IMG/VR virus record: IMGVR_UViG_3300023174_000082
Span: 1 to 64,000 of that record
Direction: 5' to 3' (one strand)
Origin: a virus
Length of the DNA: 64,000 nt
Shown here: positions 11,946-54,321 of the stretch, piece after piece
How the letters are laid out: each line of letters starts with the position of its first letter
How positions within the stretch are numbered: position 1 is the first letter of the stretch
Made by a program: the position numbers and the translations under genes
Notes under the pieces: model-generated
The model's database searches: none
Told to the model about the DNA's origin: nothing
Seen by the model: the letters and a program-made list of their open reading frames with translations, nothing else

Positions 11946-12712
11946 TTCCAGCCTCGTCCATAGTGAAACGCACCCCACTGTGCCACTGTGTTGATACGCA
12001 AGCGCCAGTCTGAATATTCCCATACCAGTTCACGACCCCAGTATTCAGTTTCAGTTCCAGCGTGGTGCCGTTTCATGTGTACAATTTTTGGATACGAAGC
12101 AAATGGCAAGGTCACACGTTCTGGACCCATGATTTCAGCTGCCATGGCATACACTAGATCAGTGTCTGCTGTTTCGGGTGCAAACTTCAACAGTTGCCTG
12201 AATTGCGGCCAGTTGGCAAATATATCACGCACTAACATAAAGAACTCTTGAGCTGTGAGGCTCAATCGCCAGTAAGTTACGGCATTGTACACATCTGGTA
12301 AGTTGTTCACATCAAACACTGATCTGTAGTTTCTAGCTGGGCTAACTTGGTCTTGCCAGTTTCTGCAACCAGTTGATACCACAACATCACGATGCCTAAA
12401 CAAAGTCCACCAGTGCGATATGTCACTCACAATCAGCATGTCTGCTTCTAGCTTTATGGTTTCCCTAAACGGTGAGTTCTTGAACACCTGCCAGTCATTG
12501 GCCCAAGGGTTTTCACGGTCCACATTGTCAATCACTTGATAGTGATCGTATATGGGATCGTTGCTTTGCTTGGCATCTGTAATCAAACAAACTTTTGCAC
12601 CCGGATCCCAACGTTTGATTGTTTTGGTCAATGTTCTAGCACAATCCAAGTAGTCAACTTTGTCAGAGTTAATGGCCAGTATCACATAACCTTGTTCATC
12701 AATGGGACGCAA
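11942..12712 (-). CDS. GT-A fold glycosyltransferase-like protein (GT8-like)
   Basis: GYVILA..Y..CA..L..TIK, SPFRETIKLEADML (DxD variant) and a C-terminal HMK. Paralog of the next gene. Confidence 0.6.
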   Translation of the reverse strand: MRPIDEQGYVILAINSDKVDYLDCARTLTKTIKRWDPGAKVCLITDAKQSNDPIYDHYQVIDNVDRENPWANDWQVFKNSPFRETIKLEADMLIVSDISHWWTLFRHRDVVVSTGCRNWQDQVSPARNYRSVFDVNNLPDVYNAVTYWRLSLTAQEFFMLVRDIFANWPQFRQLLKFAPETADTDLVYAMAAEIMGPERVTLPFASYPKIVHMKRHHAGTETEYWGRELVWEYSDWRLRINTVAQWGAFHYGRGWK

Positions 12713-46698: not shown

Positions 46699-48458
46699 TC
46701 CAAATACGAAATCTCACTGTTAAAAACTTCATGAGTGTGGGTGCCGCCACACAGGCCATTGACTTTGACCGCAATGACCTTACACTGGTGCTGGGCGAAA
46801 ACTTGGACTTGGGTGGCGATGGATCACGCAATGGCACAGGCAAGACCACAATCATCAATGCGCTAAGTTATGCCTTGTACGGTCAAGCACTATCAAACAT
46901 ACGCAAAGACAATTTAGTGAACAAGACCAATGCCAAACACATGTTGGTCAGCCTAGACTTTCACATCAATGGCACAGACTACCGGATCGAACGTGGGCGC
47001 AAACCCAACGTGCTCAAGTTCTATGTGAACAACGAACACAAAGCCGCAGAGGACGAAGCACAAGGAGATTCAAGAGAAACACAAGACGCCATAGAGCGTA
47101 TTATTGGCATGAGCCACGACATGTTCAAACATGTGCTGGCGCTGAACACATATACAGAACCGTTTCTAAGTTTGAAGGCCAATGACCAACGCACTATCAT
47201 TGAGCAGTTGTTGGGCATTACCTTGTTGAGTGAACGTGCTGACCGTATCAAAGAACTCAACCGGCAGACCAAAGATGCCATTCAGTCCGAAGAGTTTAGA
47301 ATTCGTGCTGTGCAAGAAGCCAACAAGCGCATTGAAGAACAAATTACCAGTTTAGAAAAGCGTCGAACCATGTGGTTCAAAAAGCAACAGGAAGATTGTG
47401 CAGGATTTGAAACGGCCATTGGCGACCTTGAACACATTGACATTGATGCCGAAGTACAAGCACACAGAGACTTGGAAGCGTTTCACACTAAGAAAAAAGC
47501 CATTGATGAGGCTAATCGATACATTCGACAAATTGCCGCAGATGATGTCAAGCAACAAAAACTGTTGGACAAACTCCGAACAGAGATTGCAGCCTTGGAC
47601 GATCACAAGTGTCACTCATGTGGACAGGACTTGCATGACAACAAACAAGACGAACTCAAGAAGGCCAAAGAAGAACTGTTAAAAGAAACTGCACTGCAAT
47701 TACTCGCCAACAACACCCAAGAACAAGAACATCGAGCCACGCTGACCAGGCTAGGAGAATTAGGTGTTGCACCCACTGTGTTTTATGACACGCTGGAAGA
47801 TGCACTAAATCATCGCAACACTCTCAGCACATTGCGAACCAGTTTAGACACAAGAAAAACAGAGTCAGATCCATATACGGAACAAATCACAGACATGCAA
47901 GGACAAGCCCTGCAGGTTGTGAGTTACGATCACTTGAACGAACTTACCAGAGTGCAAGACCATCAGGACTTCTTGCTCAAACTGCTAACCTCAAAAGATT
48001 CGTTTGTGCGCAAGAAGATCATTGATCAGAACTTGAGTTATCTCAACAGTCGTCTCACACACTATTTGGACAGAATTGGACTGCCACACACCGTGAAGTT
48101 CATGAACGACTTGAGTGTAAGCATTGAAGAACTGGGTCGCGAATTGGACTTTGACAATCTAAGTCGCGGTGAACGCAATCGATTAATACTCAGCATGAGT
48201 TGGGCATTCCGTGATGTGTGGGAAAGTTTGTACTCGCCTATCAACTTGCTGTTTATTGACGAGATGATTGACAACGGCTTGGACACACAAGGTGTAGAGA
48301 ATGCACTAGGCTTACTGAAGAAGATGAGTCGCGAACGCCACAAATCAATCTGGCTAGTGAGCCATAGAGATGAACTTACCAGCAGGGTAGAAAACATTCT
48401 CAAGGTTATCAAAGAAAACGGCTTTACCAGCTATAACACGGATGTAGAAATTGCGTAA
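46695..48458 (+). CDS. gp46: Recombination ATPase, gp46 (Rad50/SbcC-like)
   Basis: Walker A NGTGKT, zinc hook CHSC, signature LSRGE, Walker B LFIDE and VSH. Confidence 0.93.
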   Translation: MIQIRNLTVKNFMSVGAATQAIDFDRNDLTLVLGENLDLGGDGSRNGTGKTTIINALSYALYGQALSNIRKDNLVNKTNAKHMLVSLDFHINGTDYRIERGRKPNVLKFYVNNEHKAAEDEAQGDSRETQDAIERIIGMSHDMFKHVLALNTYTEPFLSLKANDQRTIIEQLLGITLLSERADRIKELNRQTKDAIQSEEFRIRAVQEANKRIEEQITSLEKRRTMWFKKQQEDCAGFETAIGDLEHIDIDAEVQAHRDLEAFHTKKKAIDEANRYIRQIAADDVKQQKLLDKLRTEIAALDDHKCHSCGQDLHDNKQDELKKAKEELLKETALQLLANNTQEQEHRATLTRLGELGVAPTVFYDTLEDALNHRNTLSTLRTSLDTRKTESDPYTEQITDMQGQALQVVSYDHLNELTRVQDHQDFLLKLLTSKDSFVRKKIIDQNLSYLNSRLTHYLDRIGLPHTVKFMNDLSVSIEELGRELDFDNLSRGERNRLILSMSWAFRDVWESLYSPINLLFIDEMIDNGLDTQGVENALGLLKKMSRERHKSIWLVSHRDELTSRVENILKVIKENGFTSYNTDVEIA

Positions 48459-49302
48459 GATCAAAGTATTACACCTTGAACCCACCGATGTGTGCCAAGC
48501 CGCATGCCCAGCATGTGCTAGAGAGACTGACTCAAAGTTTCGCAAGGATCAAAAACATCATTTATCCATTGGGCACATACAACGACATTTTTCTGATCGC
48601 AGGATCAAGAGCCTAGACAAGGTTTTCATGTGCGGTAACTACGGTGATCCAGCCGCTGGTGCATATACTGGTGACATGTACAAATGGTTTAGACAGCTAA
48701 ACCCCACAATCACACTTGGTATGAATACCAACGGTGCCATACAAAACACTTTCTGGTGGCATGAAATTGGACGCTTGTTCAATCAGCCCCGGGACTATGT
48801 GGTATTCAGCATTGATGGATTGGAAGATACCAATGGCGTGTATAGAAAAGGTGTGAACTGGACCAAGCTCATGCAAAATGCACAAGCATTTATCGAAGCA
48901 GGTGGTTCGGCACACTGGGATATGTTGATTTATCAACACAACGAACATCAAGTAGATGAGTGCGAGCAGCTGGCTCGCGACATGGGTTTTAAGTGGTTCC
49001 GTGCCAAAGTCAGCAAACGACCACTGATTGGTAGACTGGAATGGCCACGCAACTATCAAGCACAAACATTTGAAGGCGCTATAAAGTGTCATGCACAGCA
49101 AGAAAAAAGTGCATACATAGATGCTCGTGGCAATCTTAGTCCTTGCTGCTGGATTGGTGCCACACAAACAGATTTTGTTCGCACTGACTCTGTGGTGGAC
49201 TTTTATCCAAAGAAACACGCAACTTGTGTTGCAACTTGTTCAACAGATCAAGCCAAAACAGCATTTTCAAATCAGTGGCGCAAAGAAATTCAGTTATGTT
49301 AG
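48451..49302 (+). CDS. Radical SAM protein with C-terminal twitch-like domain
   Basis: CQAACPAC, CGNYGDP, NTNG, FSIDG and C-terminal C..YIDARG..PCCW. TTG start. Confidence 0.88.
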   Translation: MRKIKVLHLEPTDVCQAACPACARETDSKFRKDQKHHLSIGHIQRHFSDRRIKSLDKVFMCGNYGDPAAGAYTGDMYKWFRQLNPTITLGMNTNGAIQNTFWWHEIGRLFNQPRDYVVFSIDGLEDTNGVYRKGVNWTKLMQNAQAFIEAGGSAHWDMLIYQHNEHQVDECEQLARDMGFKWFRAKVSKRPLIGRLEWPRNYQAQTFEGAIKCHAQQEKSAYIDARGNLSPCCWIGATQTDFVRTDSVVDFYPKKHATCVATCSTDQAKTAFSNQWRKEIQLC

Positions 49303-50306
49303 CAACTTGGCATTTTCACATTGAGATCTCTAGCAAGTGTACCTTGCAGTGTCCTCGATGTGCCCGCCAAGAAGTGCCCAATGGCCTTGTGAACACAGAA
49401 CTAGATTTAGAATTTTTCAAACGTAACTTTACTCCTGAGTTTGTGAAAGCCAATCTAGAGAAAATTACATTCTGTGGCGATGACGGCGATCCTATCTATG
49501 CACATGATTTGATACCTGTAATTAGCTATCTTAAAAGTATAAAACCTGTTGAAATTGTCATTGTTACCAATGGATCACATAAAAAATTAACTTGGTGGAC
49601 TCAATTGGGTACTTTGTTGGATTCGAAAGATAGTGTTCATTTTAGTATAGATGGTTACGATAACGCCAGCAATAACTTGTATCGAGTAAACAGCGATTAT
49701 AACAGCATCATCGACGGTTTACAAACATTGCGTAGCATAAGTGATTGCCAAATTGTGTGGGCTGCTATTGCGTTCAAGTTCAACGAACATCATATAGACA
49801 CAATGAAAAAAGTTGCCCGACAAATTGGCGTAGACAGATTTCAATTGACCAAGAGCACAAAGTTTGGCAGTGTATATCCATCGTATGGCGTTGACGATCC
49901 ACTTGAACCCAGCGTAAAATTTGTTAGCAGTAGCCACAGATTTGAACGCGAAGTGACTGCTTTTTCAGAAGCAGGCAAATGGACCGCAATTCCACTCACA
50001 AACAACCGACTATTCAATCAAACTCAAAGTCGCAACGGTGTAACGCCGTTATGCGAGATAGGCAACAAAGGTTTATACATTGATGCCCGCGGCAGATTAT
50101 TTCCCTGCTGTTGGGTAGCAAACAGATACAATCACAATTCAGACTGGCAGCAACTCTCAAACCGCTTTGATTTAAACACAAGAACTCTAACAGAAGTATT
50201 GGCAGATAAATTTTGGGCTAACGAGTTCCAAACTTTCCAGTGGCAAGAGTGTCAAACCAAATGCTCTAGTGCATTAGTTGACGAAAAATACGCTACTTCT
50301 TGGTAA
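49296..50306 (+). CDS. Radical SAM protein with C-terminal twitch/SPASM-like domain
   Basis: CTLQCPRC, CGDDGDP, VTNG, FSIDG and C..YIDARG..PCCW..CQTKC. Likely start is ATG 49296. Tandem paralog of the previous gene. Confidence 0.88.
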   Translation: MLATWHFHIEISSKCTLQCPRCARQEVPNGLVNTELDLEFFKRNFTPEFVKANLEKITFCGDDGDPIYAHDLIPVISYLKSIKPVEIVIVTNGSHKKLTWWTQLGTLLDSKDSVHFSIDGYDNASNNLYRVNSDYNSIIDGLQTLRSISDCQIVWAAIAFKFNEHHIDTMKKVARQIGVDRFQLTKSTKFGSVYPSYGVDDPLEPSVKFVSSSHRFEREVTAFSEAGKWTAIPLTNNRLFNQTQSRNGVTPLCEIGNKGLYIDARGRLFPCCWVANRYNHNSDWQQLSNRFDLNTRTLTEVLADKFWANEFQTFQWQECQTKCSSALVDEKYATSW

Positions 50307-50340
50307 AAGGACTAACTATAGCACATAATCAAAATCACAC

Positions 50341-50769
50341 ATGACATGGCTTTATCAAGATACCCCAATTGAGACACTGCCCGAAGAATGTGTAGGTTTT
50401 GTTTATCTAATCACAAATAATCTATCTGGACGCAAGTACATAGGCAAAAAATTAGCAAAGTTTAGCAAAACAACATACAAAACAGTCAAACAAAAGAACG
50501 GCACAAAGAAGCGGAAGAAGATACGATCAAAGGTCGACTCAGACTGGAGAGAGTACTATGGGTCAAGCCCAGAATTAACCGCAGATGTAATCAAATTAGG
50601 CACCGAAAACTTTACCAGAGAAATACTTTACTATTGTAAATCAAAATCAGAATGTTCGTACATTGAAGCAAGAGAACAGTTCACAAGAAAAGTATTGGAA
50701 TCAACAGATTATTATAACGGCCATATTCAAGTTCGTGTGCATGGCTCACACATCATAAACAAAATTTAA
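50341..50769 (+). CDS. Short GIY-YIG family nuclease
   Basis: GFVYLITN..RKYIGKK, YYGSS, catalytic-type SYIE and YYN. At 142 aa it has no long C-terminal DNA-binding domain. Confidence 0.8.
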   Translation: MTWLYQDTPIETLPEECVGFVYLITNNLSGRKYIGKKLAKFSKTTYKTVKQKNGTKKRKKIRSKVDSDWREYYGSSPELTADVIKLGTENFTREILYYCKSKSECSYIEAREQFTRKVLESTDYYNGHIQVRVHGSHIINKI

Positions 50770-50774
50770 AATCA

Positions 50775-51165
50775 ACTAACACCTAAGGTTGGCGGGCCAG
50801 TTTGTAATACCGCTGTGGAAAAACCGGGGAATAACCGGACACGTGACATATTGAGGCACTCCCCTGGGTAAATCCCAGTATCCTGAAAAATGGAAGTGAG
50901 TCTGAGGCTAGAACAATAGGGCCGACGCATTGATATAGTATGAATGTTAGCATACGAGAAACCGTGCTATAAAAACTTAGATACTAGGAACGAGGTCTAA
51001 GACGCTTAACAAGCGAGTCGATGTAGGTTGGGAAAGATCAGAGCCCATTAGCATCACGGTAAAAACACCTACTTCCAATGTCTAGGCTGTGACCACTCAC
51101 ATGAAGACAACAGCGGAACCGAGCAAAACGGTTCCGTCTGACTGAAACAATCTACATGAATACTT
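50775..51165 (+). ncRNA. Candidate large structured non-coding RNA (family unassigned; boundaries and strand approximate)
   Basis: No ORF of 60 aa or more in the track. More than 10 local and long-range complementary segments, e.g. CTGGG/CCCAG, GTGAGT/ACTCAC, TGGAAG/CTTCCA, GTAGGT/ACCTAC and CGGAACCG/CGGTTCCG. Confidence 0.65.
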
Positions 51166-51218
51166 AATCGCTTCGCTCTTGAAAATCAATCACATTAACG
51201 AGCGATAGCGAAGTTAAT

Positions 51219-51237
51219 AGACTTGCGTAGCAAGTCT
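51219..51237. terminator. Perfect 8-bp hairpin between convergent units (possible terminator)
   Basis: AGACTTGC-GTA-GCAAGTCT, with only a weak U tract. Confidence 0.45.
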
Positions 51238-52289
51238 TAAATGTTGTAAATGTTTTCAACTGAATGAATGTTTGGTTCTAACAACTTGTGTAGATCTTGT
51301 GTGTTGTTAGGAAACTTTTCAAGTTGCCAAGTTTTTAAATTGAGACCATGTTGATATATCAAACAGTGTTGTATGATTATTTCTTGATCAAATGTGAGAT
51401 CAATTTCGTAATACAAGTTGTTCACGATGGCGTCAACAATATGTGGTTGATTGTAACAGAAGTCTAAGAGATCTAACTGTTTCTTTTGCCAGGCTTTACA
51501 GATAGGTAACCAAGCATCAAATCTATGTTTGTTAATCTCCAAATCAAGATACACCATTACTTTCCCAATCACAGTTTCAGTTCGAGTCCACAAGTCCAAA
51601 CAGTTGATCCAATAATGCGGATGTTGATAATCAAATTTAAAATCAAAGTGATCAAAGTCAAATGGCCGAATGTTTAACGCAAGCCGTTCGCGTCTGTCCC
51701 AAGTGTTGGTCAACTGCAATTCTTGAAATGTTGTTTGACTTGATTTGTTAAACAAGTTATCTATAAAATTGAATAGATCTTCTTCTGATTCTGGCGGACC
51801 ATTTTTGAAACCCAAATACGTTGATAAGTTTCTTGTGTTTCTAGAATAAAGCACAGATCTAGGTTCATTGGCTACGTAGATAATGTCAGTCTGTGTGTCT
51901 TTGCAAATGTCAAAAATTTTAGCATAATCGTCTGACATGTGTTGTTTTAGTTGATGGTACACATCAGTAGATTCAAGGCTACTGGTGTCAAGATTTAATC
52001 TTTTGGCAATTGTTCCTGGCATCAAGTTGATTGGGTACGTAGAATATATTGCATCCAACGGAAGTGAATCAAATTTTTCTATTTCACGTTTGAACTCGTC
52101 TGCTCCTACTGGGTGATTTTTTAAATGTCCGTGAGCATTTAATTTTGTAATAGGATCGTGAGTCAAGTCAATCCATTGGTCAAGACTTACATTGTAGTAT
52201 TTTGACTGCCCAGATAAAAAATGAATGCTCCAGTCAACAAATGTACAACCTAAAGAATGCTTGCTGGTAACACATATTTTTTTGTTCAT
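51237..52289 (-). CDS. Hypothetical protein, degenerate sulfotransferase-like
   Basis: N-terminal ICVTSKHSLGCTFVDWSI. The C-terminal E..IQ..L...G....LEKFPNNTQDL is shared with 44831..45688. Confidence 0.6.
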   Translation of the reverse strand: MNKKICVTSKHSLGCTFVDWSIHFLSGQSKYYNVSLDQWIDLTHDPITKLNAHGHLKNHPVGADEFKREIEKFDSLPLDAIYSTYPINLMPGTIAKRLNLDTSSLESTDVYHQLKQHMSDDYAKIFDICKDTQTDIIYVANEPRSVLYSRNTRNLSTYLGFKNGPPESEEDLFNFIDNLFNKSSQTTFQELQLTNTWDRRERLALNIRPFDFDHFDFKFDYQHPHYWINCLDLWTRTETVIGKVMVYLDLEINKHRFDAWLPICKAWQKKQLDLLDFCYNQPHIVDAIVNNLYYEIDLTFDQEIIIQHCLIYQHGLNLKTWQLEKFPNNTQDLHKLLEPNIHSVENIYNI

Positions 52290-52825
52290 AGATTCAAATC
52301 TTTAAGTTTGTTGATGTAGTAAAGTTGTCCTTGTGCTACTTGCTGTTTCCAATCATTGTGTGCATGTTGATTGGCTTGATCGCTGATGTATTTCCAACAC
52401 ACAAACTCAACACCATGTTTTTCACATGCTTTGGCAATGGCATAGGCTTCCATGTCTACAACGTCTGCTGGTATTTCTAGTACTGGATTCATCACAAAGT
52501 TATCACCAGTACTGCAAGTTAAGCCAGTAGAGTTGCCAATGTGTGTGCTAGTTTCAAATGGTGTTTGTCCTGGCACACATCCCAATGCCTCACAGGTCAT
52601 GTCTCTTTGCACAAACTGAGTGCATTGATAGAATCCTGGTGCGACTGTTATACCACCGGCGGTGCCAAAGTTAATAATACGTCGGGGACGATACTTTGTG
52701 ATGACTTCACTAGCAGTTATGGCAGCATTTACTTTGCCCACCCCAGTATAAAACAAGTTCATCATGTGGCTGAGATCGGGTGCTTCGTCCTGGATGGCAA
52801 TCAACACAATGTCGTTCATGCTCAT
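52286..52825 (-). CDS. mtnN: 5'-methylthioadenosine/S-adenosylhomocysteine nucleosidase-like (PNP_UDP fold)
   Basis: TGVGKVNAA, INFGTAGG, TGDNFV, VVDMEAYA and KYISD. Confidence 0.85.
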   Translation of the reverse strand: MSMNDIVLIAIQDEAPDLSHMMNLFYTGVGKVNAAITASEVITKYRPRRIINFGTAGGITVAPGFYQCTQFVQRDMTCEALGCVPGQTPFETSTHIGNSTGLTCSTGDNFVMNPVLEIPADVVDMEAYAIAKACEKHGVEFVCWKYISDQANQHAHNDWKQQVAQGQLYYINKLKDLNL

Positions 52826-53157
52826 ACAAATGTATCTGGCCAGTCTCTAAATAAAGCATGTTGAATATTGCCTGACACAAATTGATTGAATGACTTGTGC
52901 TTGACTTCAAGTTCGCCTTCGAGTGGCGCCACTCTTTTGAACGCCGAGTCCATTTGGCCCATGTCTCGAAACTCCATGATGATCATCCATTCAGGCATGT
53001 CTGCAATTGAACGAAATCCCATCTTGCATCGTGTGATACGATAGTCTACCATCTTGTCTTCAGAGATCAAATGATCAAAAAAACTTTTCATTCCGTTGAC
53101 CCAGTCAAGGTCTGAGATGTCGCCTTCTTTGTCTGCCCAAATTGTGTATAAATCCAT
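52822..53157 (-). CDS. Small hypothetical protein (DUF6614-like or dimeric alpha-beta barrel, tentative)
   Basis: YRITRCKMGF..EWMIIMEFRDMGQMDSAF pattern. Confidence 0.5.
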   Translation of the reverse strand: MDLYTIWADKEGDISDLDWVNGMKSFFDHLISEDKMVDYRITRCKMGFRSIADMPEWMIIMEFRDMGQMDSAFKRVAPLEGELEVKHKSFNQFVSGNIQHALFRDWPDTFV

Positions 53158-54091: not shown

Positions 54092-54321
54092 TAGAAATAC
54101 GGCAATTTTGTTTTGTTGGTCGTTTCCATGTTTTCTTCAGCAATCTTGCTAATCATTTTTCTTTCAGTGAAACTTAGTGCCAGCACCTGATCGTAGGTGA
54201 GTCCGCCGCGCATCAACCAAGCCAATCTTAAACTGTTTGATCTAATTGCGTTGGCCTCCTGATCAAGGCTGTCAATGTACTCGCCAATTTCCTCTACTGG
54301 GAGGATCAGGAGGCGGCTTCG
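54091..54321 (-). CDS. gp51-like hub/tail assembly chaperone segment, likely reached by -1 frameshift from the upstream ORF
   Basis: Open 76-codon frame RSRLLILPVEEIGEYID..LAWLMRGGLTYDQVLALSFTERKMI..KTKLPYF*. Its TAA overlaps the next ATG (TAATG). Confidence 0.75.
   Translation of the reverse strand, partial: RSRLLILPVEEIGEYIDSLDQEANAIRSNSLRLAWLMRGGLTYDQVLALSFTERKMISKIAEENMETTNKTKLPYF

What the first reader, a model, noticed from the sequence alone, without database searches (positions are those of the whole stretch)
50341..51237. Minimal GIY-YIG nuclease followed directly by a ~400-470-nt highly structured non-coding element: candidate nuclease + large ncRNA system
Seen in sequence: this is by far the longest intergenic stretch in a window where genes usually overlap, and it begins right at the GIY-YIG stop. 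Local hairpins are GGCGG 50791-95/CCGCT 50810-14; CCGG 50824-27/50835-38; CTGGG 50864-68/CCCAG 50874-78; TAGCATACG 50948-56/CGTGCTA 50963-69; CTTAGAT 50976-82/GTCTAAG 50995-51001; CGCTT 51003-07/AAGCG 51011-15; TGGG 51029-32/CCCA 51044-47; and CGGAACCG 51114-21/CGGTTCCG 51129-36. Nested long-range helices are GTGAGT 50896-901/ACTCAC 51095-100; CTAGA 50908-12/TCTAG 51081-85; CGAC 50923-26/GTCG 51017-20; and GTAGGT 51023-28/ACCTAC 51067-72. A crossing pairing TGGAA(GT) 50891-97/(AC)TTCCA 51071-77 would form a pseudoknot or an alternative fold. A-rich linkers and G-U pairs on the + strand fit an RNA. Established: GIY-YIG homing endonucleases such as I-TevI rely on a separate C-terminal DNA-binding domain, which this 142-aa protein lacks, and nuclease-plus-adjacent-RNA modules (HEARO/OMEGA) exist. 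Inference: the RNA may supply specificity or scaffolding to the nuclease, or it may be a ribozyme. I cannot match it to a known family.
Basis: partly seen in the sequence, partly recalled or inferred. Interest (0 to 1): 0.88.

Follow-up and report, generated by a model that had tools for sequence, protein, structure and literature searches.

The report
Twin-box phage RNA beside a nuclease
The gene-free stretch after a small nuclease gene of this uncultured T4-like lake phage holds a real, large, knotted non-coding RNA that no RNA catalogue lists; it seems to work without the nuclease, and its job is still unknown.

Summary
Positions 50770-51236 are the longest ORF-free stretch of the window. 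On the + strand they encode a multi-pseudoknotted RNA of about 390 nt (50776-51161) plus a two-hairpin tail reaching 51237. On 58 non-redundant relatives, 97.5% of pair cells are standard pairs and 40 of 80 pairs show compensatory changes.

Rfam has no match for the window's RNA. In sister loci, however, the same slot holds an RNA whose first third is the orphan motif Polynucleobacter-1 (RF01718), and all forms share a 3' module with the window. That module shows one 7-nt word twice; the two copies differ between phages but stay identical within each RNA.

The nuclease-plus-guide-RNA reading is not supported:
- gp46, the GIY-YIG gene and the RNA form a conserved backbone order.
- The RNA's 5' body swaps at least 16 times on the nuclease tree.
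- The RNA persists where the nuclease is missing (5 of 86 loci).
- The nuclease family occurs in 458 cultured phage records; the three I inspected lack the RNA.

The RNA's function is not shown. This scan had already noted the same RNA family on other genomes (76 notes). My verdict is a new variant of a known orphan kind, of moderate interest.

The parts
50341..50769 (+). 142-aa GIY-YIG nuclease gene, a syntenic neighbour that is probably co-transcribed with the RNA
   Evidence: Pfam PF19835 SegE_GIY-YIG, E 4e-33, profile 1-123/123. PHROG 447, E 8e-38, profile 9-143/148. At least 597 relatives in IMG/VR. 458 cultured phage records at under 60% identity. An RNA-library contig spans 50680-50957.
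50776..51161 (+). Core of the twin-box RNA, window form 'type A', about 386 nt
   Evidence: Conservation begins at 50776 in 58 relatives. 80 pairs, 97.5% paired, 40 pairs with compensatory changes. 322 G-U against 10 A-C cells. No Rfam match.
50791..50814 (+). Hairpin H2 (50791-95 with 50810-14) with a conserved 14-nt loop
   Evidence: 3 of 5 pairs have changes on both sides; 100% paired.
50815..50819 (+). 5' strand of the outer helix P1; it pairs with 51151-51155, inside box 2
   Evidence: 98.3% paired, but only one-sided (wobble) changes, so it is compatible and not proven.
50824..50838 (+). Hairpin H3
   Evidence: 4 of 4 pairs compensatory.
50848..50936 (+). Multi-branch domain. H4 (50848-57 with 50927-36) encloses H5 (50858-61 with 50898-901), H6 (50864-78), H7 (50881-94) and H8 (50906-23).
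   Evidence: Pairs with compensatory changes: H4 3 of 9, H5 1 of 4, H6 4 of 5, H7 2 of 3, H8 3 of 4.
50938..50955 (+). Hairpin H9 in an invariant 21-nt stretch
   Evidence: Never varies, so it is uninformative. Part of this invariance comes from my sampling, because the 21-mer was my search pattern.
50961..50969 (+). 5' strands of two pseudoknot helices: 50961-65 pairs with 51056-60, and 50966-69 pairs with 51049-52
   Evidence: Column pair 231/334 reads A-U 52, G-C 5, C-G 1. The first helix changes register between subclasses (73.7% paired in one register).
50976..51001 (+). Hairpin H10 with a near-invariant 12-nt loop
   Evidence: 6 of 7 pairs compensatory.
51003..51015 (+). Variable hairpin H11
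   Evidence: A hairpin of at least 4 bp forms in 54 of 58 sequences, which include 47 distinct sequences.
51020..51072 (+). Knotted domain. Pseudoknot 51020-22 with 51037-39 (in the loop of H13), H12 (51023-27 with 51068-72) and H13 (51029-32 with 51044-47).
   Evidence: Pseudoknot 3 of 3, H12 3 of 5 and H13 2 of 4 pairs compensatory; these are top MI pairs.
51094..51106 (+). Box 1; the 7-nt word is 51099-51105
   Evidence: Word positions co-vary perfectly with box 2: MI equals the full column entropy at two positions. The two words are identical in 117 of 118 loci found with 3 word positions left free.
51113..51137 (+). Hairpin H16 between the boxes, followed by a conserved TGAC (51139-42)
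   Evidence: 98.3% paired. Types B and C have a different stem sequence at the same place. On the minus strand it scans as terminator-like.
51149..51161 (+). Box 2; the 7-nt word is 51154-51160; it overlaps the P1 3' strand 51151-55
51162..51237 (+). 3' tail with two hairpins, 51194-51218 (conserved 13-nt loop) and 51219-51237; probably the transcript end for both converging directions
   Evidence: In 45 distinct tails of all three RNA types, 5 of 6 and at least 4 of 6 stem pairs show compensatory changes. The last base overlaps the stop codon of the minus-strand gene.
51237..52289 (-). Converging 350-aa ORF with no family match; the first gene of the variable region to the right of the RNA
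   Evidence: No Pfam or PHROG match. Present in only part of the relatives.

Best explanation
The gap is an autonomous gene for a large structured non-coding RNA: a core of about 390 nt plus a hairpin tail of about 75 nt, on the + strand.

**Family.** It belongs to an uncatalogued 'twin-box' RNA superfamily of uncultured T4-like, mostly freshwater, often 330-350 kb phages. The superfamily comes in at least three interchangeable 5' bodies:
- type A, as in this window;
- type B;
- type C, whose first 141 nt are the orphan Rfam motif Polynucleobacter-1.

All types share a 3' module: box 1, a hairpin, TGAC, then box 2.

**Place in the genome.** The RNA gene sits at a fixed backbone position, gp46, then the GIY-YIG gene, then the RNA, at the border of a variable region. 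It is probably transcribed together with the nuclease gene. It is neither a guide nor a scaffold of the nuclease.

**How it works (inferred, not shown).** The RNA folds into a compact, multiply knotted body. Its conserved working end is the twin-box module. Two identical 7-nt words are displayed just 3' of two short helix strands, on either side of a hairpin. I read them as two equivalent sites for one trans-acting reader: two copies or a dimer of a protein, or one endonuclease cutting twice. The exchangeable 5' body would serve as scaffold.

For: **Structure and strand.**: 97.5% of cells paired, 40 of 80 pairs compensatory, 322 G-U against 10 A-C.

**Family.**
- The gaps behind the GIY-YIG gene fall into three sequence clusters that share about 150 nt at the 3' end (nhmmer E 1e-20 to 5e-4).
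- RF01718 scores 75-118 bits in 11 of 20 sister loci, starting 8-50 nt after the nuclease stop.
- All 69 of 69 GIY-YIG-sampled loci with at least 600 nt downstream carry an RNA: A 9, B 35, C 23, other 2.

**Twin words.**: identical in 117 of 118 loci, with 10 different word pairs.

**Independence from the nuclease.**
- At least 16 type changes on the nuclease tree; the minimum possible is 2, and well-supported branches alone force at least 5, 9 and 7 changes for A, B and C.
- gp46 lies upstream in 56 of 56 assessable loci.
- The nuclease is absent in 5 of 86 assessable loci of the same backbone, and absent from the rest of those five records, which are 2-55% complete.
- In a sample drawn with a 21-mer of the RNA (118 loci), the nuclease is adjacent upstream in 35, upstream behind a small ORF in 44, downstream in 9 (2 of them about 2 kb away at 43% identity), absent with both sides assessable in 14, absent upstream with the downstream side not assessable in 6, and not assessable in 10.
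- 458 cultured phage records carry the nuclease family; the 3 of 3 I inspected lack the RNA.

**Copy number.** One copy of the module in each of three 95-100% complete genomes of 332-347 kb, one genome for each RNA type.

**Expression hint.** Contigs of three metatranscriptome studies cover both the ORF and the RNA. One contig runs from the ORF into the RNA (50680-50957), and contigs run unbroken through 51067-51184.
Against: - No function is shown.
- The RNA-library evidence is contigs only, so it gives no strand, ends or level. DNA carry-over is not excluded, and the depth over the RNA is not above that over the ORF.
- The linkage with the nuclease is strong: the gene lies upstream on the same strand in 80 of 86 assessable loci found by the twin-box pattern alone, with protein identities of 36-94%. 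Some functional tie therefore cannot be ruled out.
- The outer helix P1 and any pairing of box 1 have no compensatory change, so even the RNA-level role of the boxes is inferred.
- No reader of the words was found. There is no complementary partner in the RNA and no enrichment of the word in the window (6 matches against 12.5 expected).
- All samples are metagenomic contigs with overlapping origins, so the counts are not independent lineages.
Confidence: 0.6

Rival explanations
1. Nuclease-RNA system: the RNA guides, targets or scaffolds the minimal GIY-YIG nuclease.
For: The RNA starts 7 nt after the nuclease stop on the same strand. The nuclease lies upstream in 80 of 86 assessable twin-box loci down to 36% identity. 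In a second lineage the two are again neighbours, in the opposite order (9 loci, 2 of them about 2 kb apart at 43% identity). An RNA-library contig bridges the ORF and the RNA.
Against: There are at least 16 swaps of RNA type on the nuclease tree, and sister nuclease genes sit next to different types and different words. gp46 is linked just as tightly (56 of 56). The RNA occurs without the nuclease (5 of 86, and 14 of 118 in the other sample). ORFs are inserted between the two in many loci. The nuclease family is widespread in cultured phages, and the 3 of 3 I inspected have no such RNA. No variable unpaired guide segment is present.
Confidence: 0.07
2. The GIY-YIG gene is, or was, a free-standing homing endonuclease that sits beside a conserved RNA gene it uses as its target. 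Breaks near the RNA drive the frequent replacement of RNA alleles. This explains the linkage, not the RNA's own job, so it can hold together with the best explanation.
For: The Pfam family is SegE-type. The gene is present or absent in the same backbone and occurs on either side of the RNA. RNA alleles are swapped exactly at the nuclease gene's 3' border.
Against: The gene is nearly fixed (80 of 86; 69 of 69 in close relatives) and lies at one backbone site next to gp46. Relatives are present in about 400 cyanophage records. That pattern fits a domesticated core gene better than a sporadic selfish one. The 142-aa protein has no recognisable DNA-binding domain. No cleavage site is known.
Confidence: 0.15
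3. Self-processing RNA: the two identical words are two sites of one cleavage (and perhaps ligation) reaction, by the RNA itself or by one endonuclease. The reaction would release or rearrange the roughly 55-nt hairpin segment between them.
For: Identical words flank a conserved hairpin in all types. The body is large, knotted and highly conserved, as in ribozymes. The four letters before each word differ and could pair with two different internal strands.
Against: No Rfam ribozyme family matches. RNA-library contigs run straight through box 1, the hairpin and box 2, and the only joint reported lies elsewhere, at a divergent stretch; contigs hide rare forms, however. No RtcB or T4 Rnl1 in the 117-kb record, which is 34% complete (the Rnl1 search also found nothing in any control genome, so it says nothing).
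Confidence: 0.1
4. A cis-acting 3' end element: a bulky structure that ends and protects the gp46/GIY-YIG transcript and the converging transcript, with no trans function.
For: It lies at the convergence of two transcription directions and has two covarying terminal hairpins. H16 scans as terminator-like on the minus strand.
Against: In the second lineage the same RNA lies inside co-directional gene arrays. About 390 nt with three pseudoknots and long invariant loops is far more than end protection needs. The tail, not the core, is what differs between lineages.
Confidence: 0.1
5. A DNA-level element such as a replication origin, primer RNA gene or recombination site. The twin words would be protein-binding iterons or crossover cores. 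Two earlier notes of this scan guessed replication priming.
For: Direct repeats that evolve in concert beside a hairpin resemble iteron-plus-hairpin origins (my own knowledge). The element sits next to the recombination genes gp46/47 and at a hotspot of allele exchange.
Against: The G-U against A-C asymmetry (322 to 10) and the compensatory changes show selection on a + strand RNA fold. The four letters before the words stay different, against simple conversion or crossover. There is only one copy per complete genome and no reverse transcriptase.
Confidence: 0.07

Closest known systems
Polynucleobacter-1 RNA motif (Rfam RF01718; Weinberg et al. 2010, PMC2864571; I saw only its table row, through a text search)
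   Same: It occupies the same genomic slot in sister phages: 11 of 20 loci score 75-118 bits, directly after the same nuclease gene. Those RNAs continue into the same twin-box 3' module as the window's RNA. A local motif, a small hairpin preceded by a conserved pentamer, recurs in the window's 5' body (by eye). It is an orphan with no known function; the paper lists it as an RNA, possibly cis-regulatory, from Burkholderiales and fresh water or estuary.
   Different: The window's RNA does not match the model even at E up to 10. The catalogued motif is 141 nt, only the first third of a type C RNA. The window's 5' body has a different helix topology. The twin boxes, the pseudoknots and types A and B are not catalogued.
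Large orphan 'ornate' bacterial and phage RNAs (GOLLD, ROOL, OLE, raiA; Kretsch et al. 2025, PMC12286853; abstract seen in a search listing)
   Same: It is large, highly structured and pseudoknotted, is found by comparative genomics mostly in uncultured or phage DNA, and has no known function.
   Different: There is no sequence or model match. It is smaller (about 390 nt). The twin co-varying words and the three exchangeable 5' bodies have no counterpart that I know of. Oligomer formation was not tested.
   Same: A nuclease gene with a long structured RNA encoded directly beside it on the same strand.
   Different: The nuclease fold is different (GIY-YIG, not RuvC/HNH). There is no variable guide segment, no co-evolution and no obligate co-occurrence. 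No HEARO or other Rfam match.
Free-standing Seg-type GIY-YIG homing endonucleases of T4, such as SegB in the tRNA gene cluster
   Same: A GIY-YIG gene of the SegE Pfam family lies beside a conserved RNA gene, with presence/absence polymorphism and local allele replacement.
   Different: The protein has only 142 aa, without the C-terminal DNA-binding part. The gene is nearly fixed at one backbone site and is widely conserved in T4-like cyanophages.

Membership tests
Polynucleobacter-1 RNA (RF01718) | Match to the Rfam covariance model at or above 37 bits | tested here: not met
   No hit in the window at gathering score or at E up to 10 on 50600-51400. Sister loci score 75-118 bits.
Polynucleobacter-1 RNA (RF01718) | Homology to RNAs that contain the motif (same slot, shared sequence) | tested here: met
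   The shared 3' module is detected by a profile of window-type RNAs in type C loci (E down to 1e-20). Same position after the same gene.
Twin-box RNA superfamily (uncatalogued; the name comes from earlier notes of this scan) | Box 1, a hairpin, TGAC and box 2, with the two 7-nt words identical | tested here: met
   The window's words at 51099-105 and 51154-160 are identical. The pattern is found in at least 120 viral contigs, with words identical in 117 of 118.
Twin-box RNA superfamily (uncatalogued; the name comes from earlier notes of this scan) | Covariation-supported, pseudoknotted 5' body | tested here: met
   40 of 80 pairs compensatory; pseudoknot 3 of 3.
RNA-guided nuclease systems (OMEGA/HEARO-like) | Obligate co-occurrence and co-evolution of protein and RNA | tested here: not met
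RNA-guided nuclease systems (OMEGA/HEARO-like) | A variable, unpaired guide segment next to a constant scaffold | tested here: not met
   The variable stretches in A2 are hairpins that keep pairing. The constant part is the 3' module and the variable part is a whole structured body.
RNA-guided nuclease systems (OMEGA/HEARO-like) | RNA-dependent target cleavage | not testable with these tools
   Needs biochemistry.
Seg-type free-standing GIY-YIG homing endonuclease | GIY-YIG catalytic domain | tested here: met
   PF19835, E 4e-33. The GIY and YIG motifs, Arg, Glu and Asn are visible in the translation (by eye).
Seg-type free-standing GIY-YIG homing endonuclease | A separate DNA-binding domain | tested here: not met
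   The protein has 142 aa and the domain profile covers residues 3-129. No other Pfam hit.
Seg-type free-standing GIY-YIG homing endonuclease | Sporadic distribution among close relatives | tested here: inconclusive
   Absent in 5 of 86 loci of the same backbone, but present in 69 of 69 close loci (these were sampled by the gene itself) and in 458 cultured phage records.
Group I / group II introns and small self-cleaving ribozymes | Match to the Rfam models; an interrupted host gene | tested here: not met
   No match at E up to 10. The element lies between a stop codon and a converging gene, with no exon continuity.
tRNA / tmRNA | ARAGORN detection | tested here: not met
   0 genes in the 64-kb window.

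The most novel reading that the evidence does not exclude
The twin-box RNA is a catalytic or switch-like machine whose two identical words are its sites of action. One possibility is a self-processing RNA that cuts, or cuts and rejoins, at both words to release the hairpin segment. Another is an RNA that toggles between two competing pairings: GAGT with upstream ACTC or with box 1, and GCTA with the upstream or the downstream TAGC. Its three exchangeable 5' bodies would then be alleles kept by phage-host or phage-phage conflict. That would make it a new class of large functional phage RNA, not an accessory of the nuclease.
Probability: 0.1. Interest if true: 0.85.

Novelty: new variant of a known kind. 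Interest (0 to 1): 0.55.

Why it matters
Large, multiply knotted non-coding RNAs are rare. Each class found so far (RNase P, group I/II introns, OLE, GOLLD, ROOL, HEARO/omega RNA) turned out to be catalytic, a guide, or an unexpected architecture.

This one is carried by hundreds of uncultured T4-like lake phages, including jumbo phages of 330-350 kb. It shows that the orphan Polynucleobacter-1 motif of 2010 is only the head of a three-times larger RNA. It also has two features without an obvious precedent:
- a 7-nt word kept identical twice within each RNA while it drifts between phages, with no pairing partner;
- three deeply different 5' bodies that are swapped between near-identical genomes.

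The small nuclease next door is a conserved backbone gene, not evidence of a new RNA-guided nuclease.

Tried and rejected
**Known RNA families.** Rfam over the whole window at gathering scores, and over 50600-51400 at E up to 10, gave only a 12-bit chance hit to a mammalian lncRNA exon. ARAGORN found 0 genes.

**Cultured phages.**
- blastn ('distant' mode) of the window RNA (twice), a type C RNA and a type B RNA against 50,697 phage records: no match.
I guessed GAP32, 121Q and Atu_ph07.
  - A loose twin-box pattern gave only chance-level hits with unequal words.
  - RF01718 gave nothing at E up to 1.
  - My sequence-only model R1 gave nothing in these three, nor in Melnitz-3 and ACP17. No known positive was included in that search.
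  - So the lead is not reproduced; it is not disproved.

**A model of the 3' module with its hairpin.** RNAalifold found no consensus pair on A3, because the hairpin is aligned one column out of register between types. R1 therefore has no base pairs.

**A partner for the twin words.**
- The MI scan of A2 found none.
- The word is not enriched in the window: 6 matches against 12.5 expected.
- A candidate helix in type B (box 2 with an upstream hexamer) fails; C-A mismatches are frequent (by eye).
- C/D-box or K-turn readings, an ORF reading (a 14-codon frame in the window only; the spacer length is not a multiple of three in relatives), a start-codon mimic and a promoter reading were considered and dropped as inconsistent across variants.

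**Reverse-transcription or template-jump idea.** No RVT_1 in the window's record (34% complete) or in five related records, three of them 95-100% complete.

**RNA repair genes.** No RtcB in the window's record. The T4 Rnl1 search also found nothing in any control genome, so it says nothing.

**Bacterial hosts.**
- The one scan of genome contigs gave 9 hits, all on contigs of metagenome-assembled genomes of unrelated phyla. Six are clear members (L201, L203, L204, L205, L207, L208), L206 is a possible further member, and L200 and L202 look like chance hits.
- I read the members as phage contigs binned into those assemblies.
- No Polynucleobacter genome could be reached, so I could not check whether the bacterial copies of RF01718 carry the twin-box module.

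**Partner proteins.** A zinc-finger-like ORF family lies upstream of the RNA in 14 loci of a second lineage, and an 88-aa CxxC ORF lies between nuclease and RNA in other loci. They have no Pfam match (zinc-finger family; the 88-aa ORF was not searched), no clear mutual homology and no copy in the window's record, so I dropped them as universal partners.

**Synteny of nuclease-plus against nuclease-free loci in the second lineage by tblastx.** The output was too fragmentary; it gave only offsets suggesting an indel.

**Expression.** Parts of the stretch without cover in some runs are not evidence. Depth cannot rank the ORF against the RNA because all four runs are contigs.

**Literature.**
- Searches: 'Polynucleobacter-1' gave 1 paper. 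Two wider searches gave nothing on this RNA.
- PMC10690425 (passages read) reports 8,495 viral RNA motifs of 29-151 nt from IMG/VR. Pieces of this RNA may be among them, but the lists are in supplements that I could not see.
- The Polynucleobacter-1 description in Weinberg 2010 is also in supplements I could not see.


Full report
**What is there.** The window is the first 64 kb of a 116,950-bp IMG/VR virus record that is 34% complete. The ORF at 50341-50769 encodes a 142-aa protein. It matches Pfam SegE_GIY-YIG over the whole profile (E 4e-33) and PHROG 447 end to end. From its stop codon to the stop of a converging 350-aa ORF (51237) there is no ATG-started ORF of 70 aa or more. With 467 nt this is the longest such gap in the window; the next is 259 nt. 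The stretch folds better than shuffled copies on both strands (z = -3.49 and -2.92). No Rfam family, tRNA or tmRNA matches.

**Is the structure real?** I collected relatives in two ways.
- With the nuclease protein: at least 597 hits in IMG/VR, of which the best 80 were kept.
- With a 21-nt invariant stretch of the gap itself: at least 119 stretches.

From the second set I kept 58 sequences that are under 97% identical to each other and 66-90% identical to the window.
- RNAalifold predicts 72 pairs, 33 of them with compensatory changes.
- I added the pairs that a mutual-information scan revealed. The resulting 80-pair model, in 17 helices and with pseudoknots, has 97.5% of 4,621 cells paired (shuffles 88.7%; partners slid by 1-3 columns 31-38%).
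- It has 40 pairs with changes on both sides (shuffles 22.6; slid 6-9) and a covariation score of 0.284 against 0.122; 0 of 500 shuffles reach these values.
- Paired cells hold 322 G-U but only 10 A-C, so selection acts on the + strand RNA.
- One caution: the 21-mer I searched with is invariant by construction, and the sequences are related, so the shuffle counts are not probabilities. The slid controls and the many pair types per column do not depend on that.

Conservation begins at 50776. The core ends with box 2 at 51161. A tail of two further hairpins, with compensatory changes in 45 distinct tails, reaches 51237.

Eight of 13 are supported, two are rejected, and three are only sequence-compatible while the covariation points to another partner. 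Two of the compatible-only cases amount to pairs of mutually exclusive helices that every sequence could form:
- GAGT with upstream ACTC or with box 1;
- GCTA with an upstream or a downstream TAGC.

This may be chance or a sign of alternative folds. I could not test it.

**What family is it?**
- The gaps behind the nuclease gene fall into three sequence clusters: A (the window's), B and C.
- The clusters cannot be aligned in their first 300 nt or so but share the last 150 nt or so (nhmmer).
- In 11 of 20 sister loci Rfam finds Polynucleobacter-1 (RF01718) at 75-118 bits, starting 8-50 nt after the nuclease stop. These are type C or relatives of it.
- Polynucleobacter-1 is an orphan motif of 141 nt. 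The 2010 paper lists it as an RNA, possibly cis-regulatory, from Burkholderiales and fresh or estuarine water (table row only, the description is in supplements I could not see).
- So the catalogued motif is the head of an RNA of about 370-400 nt, and the window carries a sibling that the model does not recognise.
- All 69 nuclease-sampled loci with at least 600 nt of downstream sequence have such an RNA: A 9, B 35, C 23, other 2.

**The twin words.** The shared 3' module reads box 1, a spacer of variable length, a hairpin, TGAC, a short spacer, then box 2.
- Each box is four fixed letters, which differ between box 1 and box 2, followed by a 7-nt word.
- In the window the word sits at 51099-51105 and again at 51154-51160.
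- Across type A, the two copies change together; mutual information equals the full column entropy at two positions. The same holds in types B and C.
In the 118 loci analysed the two words are identical in 117, with ten different word pairs.
- These are direct repeats, not complements.
- I found no third, complementary partner in the RNA and no enrichment of the word elsewhere in the window.
- The word does not follow the nuclease tree.
- There is no reverse transcriptase in three 95-100% complete genomes, each of which has exactly one copy of the module.
- Because the four letters in front of the words stay different in every type, plain gene conversion is an unlikely cause.
- The outer helix P1 joins 50815-19 to the four-letter part of box 2. 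It is 98% paired but shows only wobble changes, so it is not proven.

The twin words remain unexplained. My working reading is two equivalent sites for one trans-acting reader.

**Is it tied to the nuclease?**

For a tie:
- In the pattern-defined sample, which depends neither on the nuclease nor on the 5' body, 86 loci have at least 1 kb upstream. 74 have the nuclease gene ending no more than 700 nt before box 1, 6 have it further upstream with an ORF between, 1 has it on the other strand, and 5 have none. Protein identities run from 36% to 94%.

Against a functional tie:
- gp46, a core recombination gene, is upstream in 56 of 56 assessable loci at every level of nuclease divergence, whereas the right flank is variable. 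So gp46, nuclease and RNA form a conserved backbone order.
- A maximum-likelihood tree of 68 nuclease genes needs at least 16 changes of RNA type (minimum possible 2; shuffled mean 27.5). Well-supported branches alone force 5, 9 and 7 changes for A, B and C. Several sister pairs carry different types. The window's nearest neighbours are two type A and three type B loci.
- In five loci the same backbone has other ORFs in place of the nuclease and keeps the RNA. The five records, 2-55% complete, have no copy elsewhere.
- In the sample drawn with the 21-mer (118 loci) the nuclease is adjacent upstream in 35, upstream behind a small ORF in 44, downstream of the RNA in 9 (2 of them about 2 kb away at 43% identity), absent with both sides assessable in 14, absent upstream with the downstream side not assessable in 6, and not assessable in 10. 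The nuclease-free loci belong to a second lineage in which a zinc-finger-like ORF precedes the RNA.
- The nuclease family is found by tblastn in 458 cultured phage records at 38-50% identity, about 400 of them T4-like cyanophages. The three I opened have no long gap and no twin-box module beside it.

I conclude that the nuclease is a conserved neighbour, possibly once a homing endonuclease, and not a partner that needs this RNA.

**Expression.** Six metatranscriptome runs hold 19-37% of the sampled words of 50300-51300. I laid four, all kept as contigs. Three of them, from three studies, cover both the ORF and the RNA. One contig runs from 50680 to 50957, and others run unbroken over 51067-51184, that is, through both boxes. 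The single joint reported (50996 to 51067) falls on a divergent stretch of a relative. This fits co-transcription and an unprocessed module. But contigs give no strand, ends or levels, they hide rare forms, and DNA carry-over is possible.

**Where else?**
- The one scan of bacterial and archaeal genome contigs gave nine hits, all on contigs of metagenome-assembled genomes from unrelated phyla, two of them marine. Six are clear members and five of the nine have the nuclease beside the module. I read these as binned phage contigs.
- No cultured phage matched by blastn.

**Relation to earlier notes of this scan.** I found the covariation, the Polynucleobacter-1 link and the twin words before I looked the notes up. 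The scan already holds 76 notes on this family from at least 73 genomes. Several follow-ups reach the same verdict, and I reuse their name 'twin-box'. As far as the listed lines show, my additions are:
- the tree test for swapping of RNA types;
- the gp46 comparison;
- the nuclease-free loci in the same backbone;
- the cultured-phage check of the nuclease family;
- the single-copy and no-reverse-transcriptase result in complete genomes.

**Verdict.** The 'nuclease plus RNA system' reading is not supported. The thing itself is a new, uncatalogued variant of an orphan RNA kind, with an unexplained twin-word feature. Its function is unknown. My committed reading is an autonomous RNA whose twin-box end binds or is processed by one reader at two sites, and that part rests on inference only.

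Noticed in passing
window 48451-50306: Two tandem radical SAM / SPASM-like genes (283 and 360 aa, weak Pfam hits, PHROG 21308) lie between gp46 and the nuclease gene. Many relatives lack them, so they are an optional insert in the backbone.
   Followed up: partly
window 51164-51237: The RNA's tail has two covarying hairpins. The first has a conserved 13-nt loop that can also pair with a conserved stretch at 51168-78, a possible further pseudoknot. That stretch is missing in some type B loci.
   Followed up: partly
window 50341-50769 and GenBank records: Many cultured-phage homologues of this GIY-YIG protein, and PHROG 447 itself, are annotated 'NAD synthetase'. This looks like a propagated mis-annotation.
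   Followed up: no
L006:1492-1758, L010:3426-3692 and similar loci: An 88-aa ORF with a CxxC motif is inserted between the nuclease gene and the RNA. In the 21-mer sample 44 of 118 loci have a 200-400-nt spacing of this kind.
   Followed up: partly
L085, L093, L150, L184 and ten more loci: A family of 110-210-aa proteins with two CxxC pairs and an HWR motif lies just upstream of the type A RNA in a second phage lineage. It has no Pfam match and no copy in the window's record.
   Followed up: partly
window 51114-51136, minus strand: The hairpin between the two boxes, read on the minus strand, scans as an intrinsic-terminator-like site. It could also end the converging transcript.
   Followed up: no
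window 12440-12698 and 54092-54305: These are the next-longest ORF-free stretches (259 and 214 nt). I did not examine them.
   Followed up: no
window 52286-53157, minus strand: A PNP_UDP_1 phosphorylase-like gene (179 aa) and a DUF6614 gene (111 aa) lie in the variable region to the right of the RNA. DUF6614 is kept only in close relatives.
   Followed up: partly
L206 (contig of a Roseicyclus metagenome-assembled genome): A twin-box-like module with a different hairpin, whose two words differ at one position. It may be a further RNA type from a marine setting.
   Followed up: no
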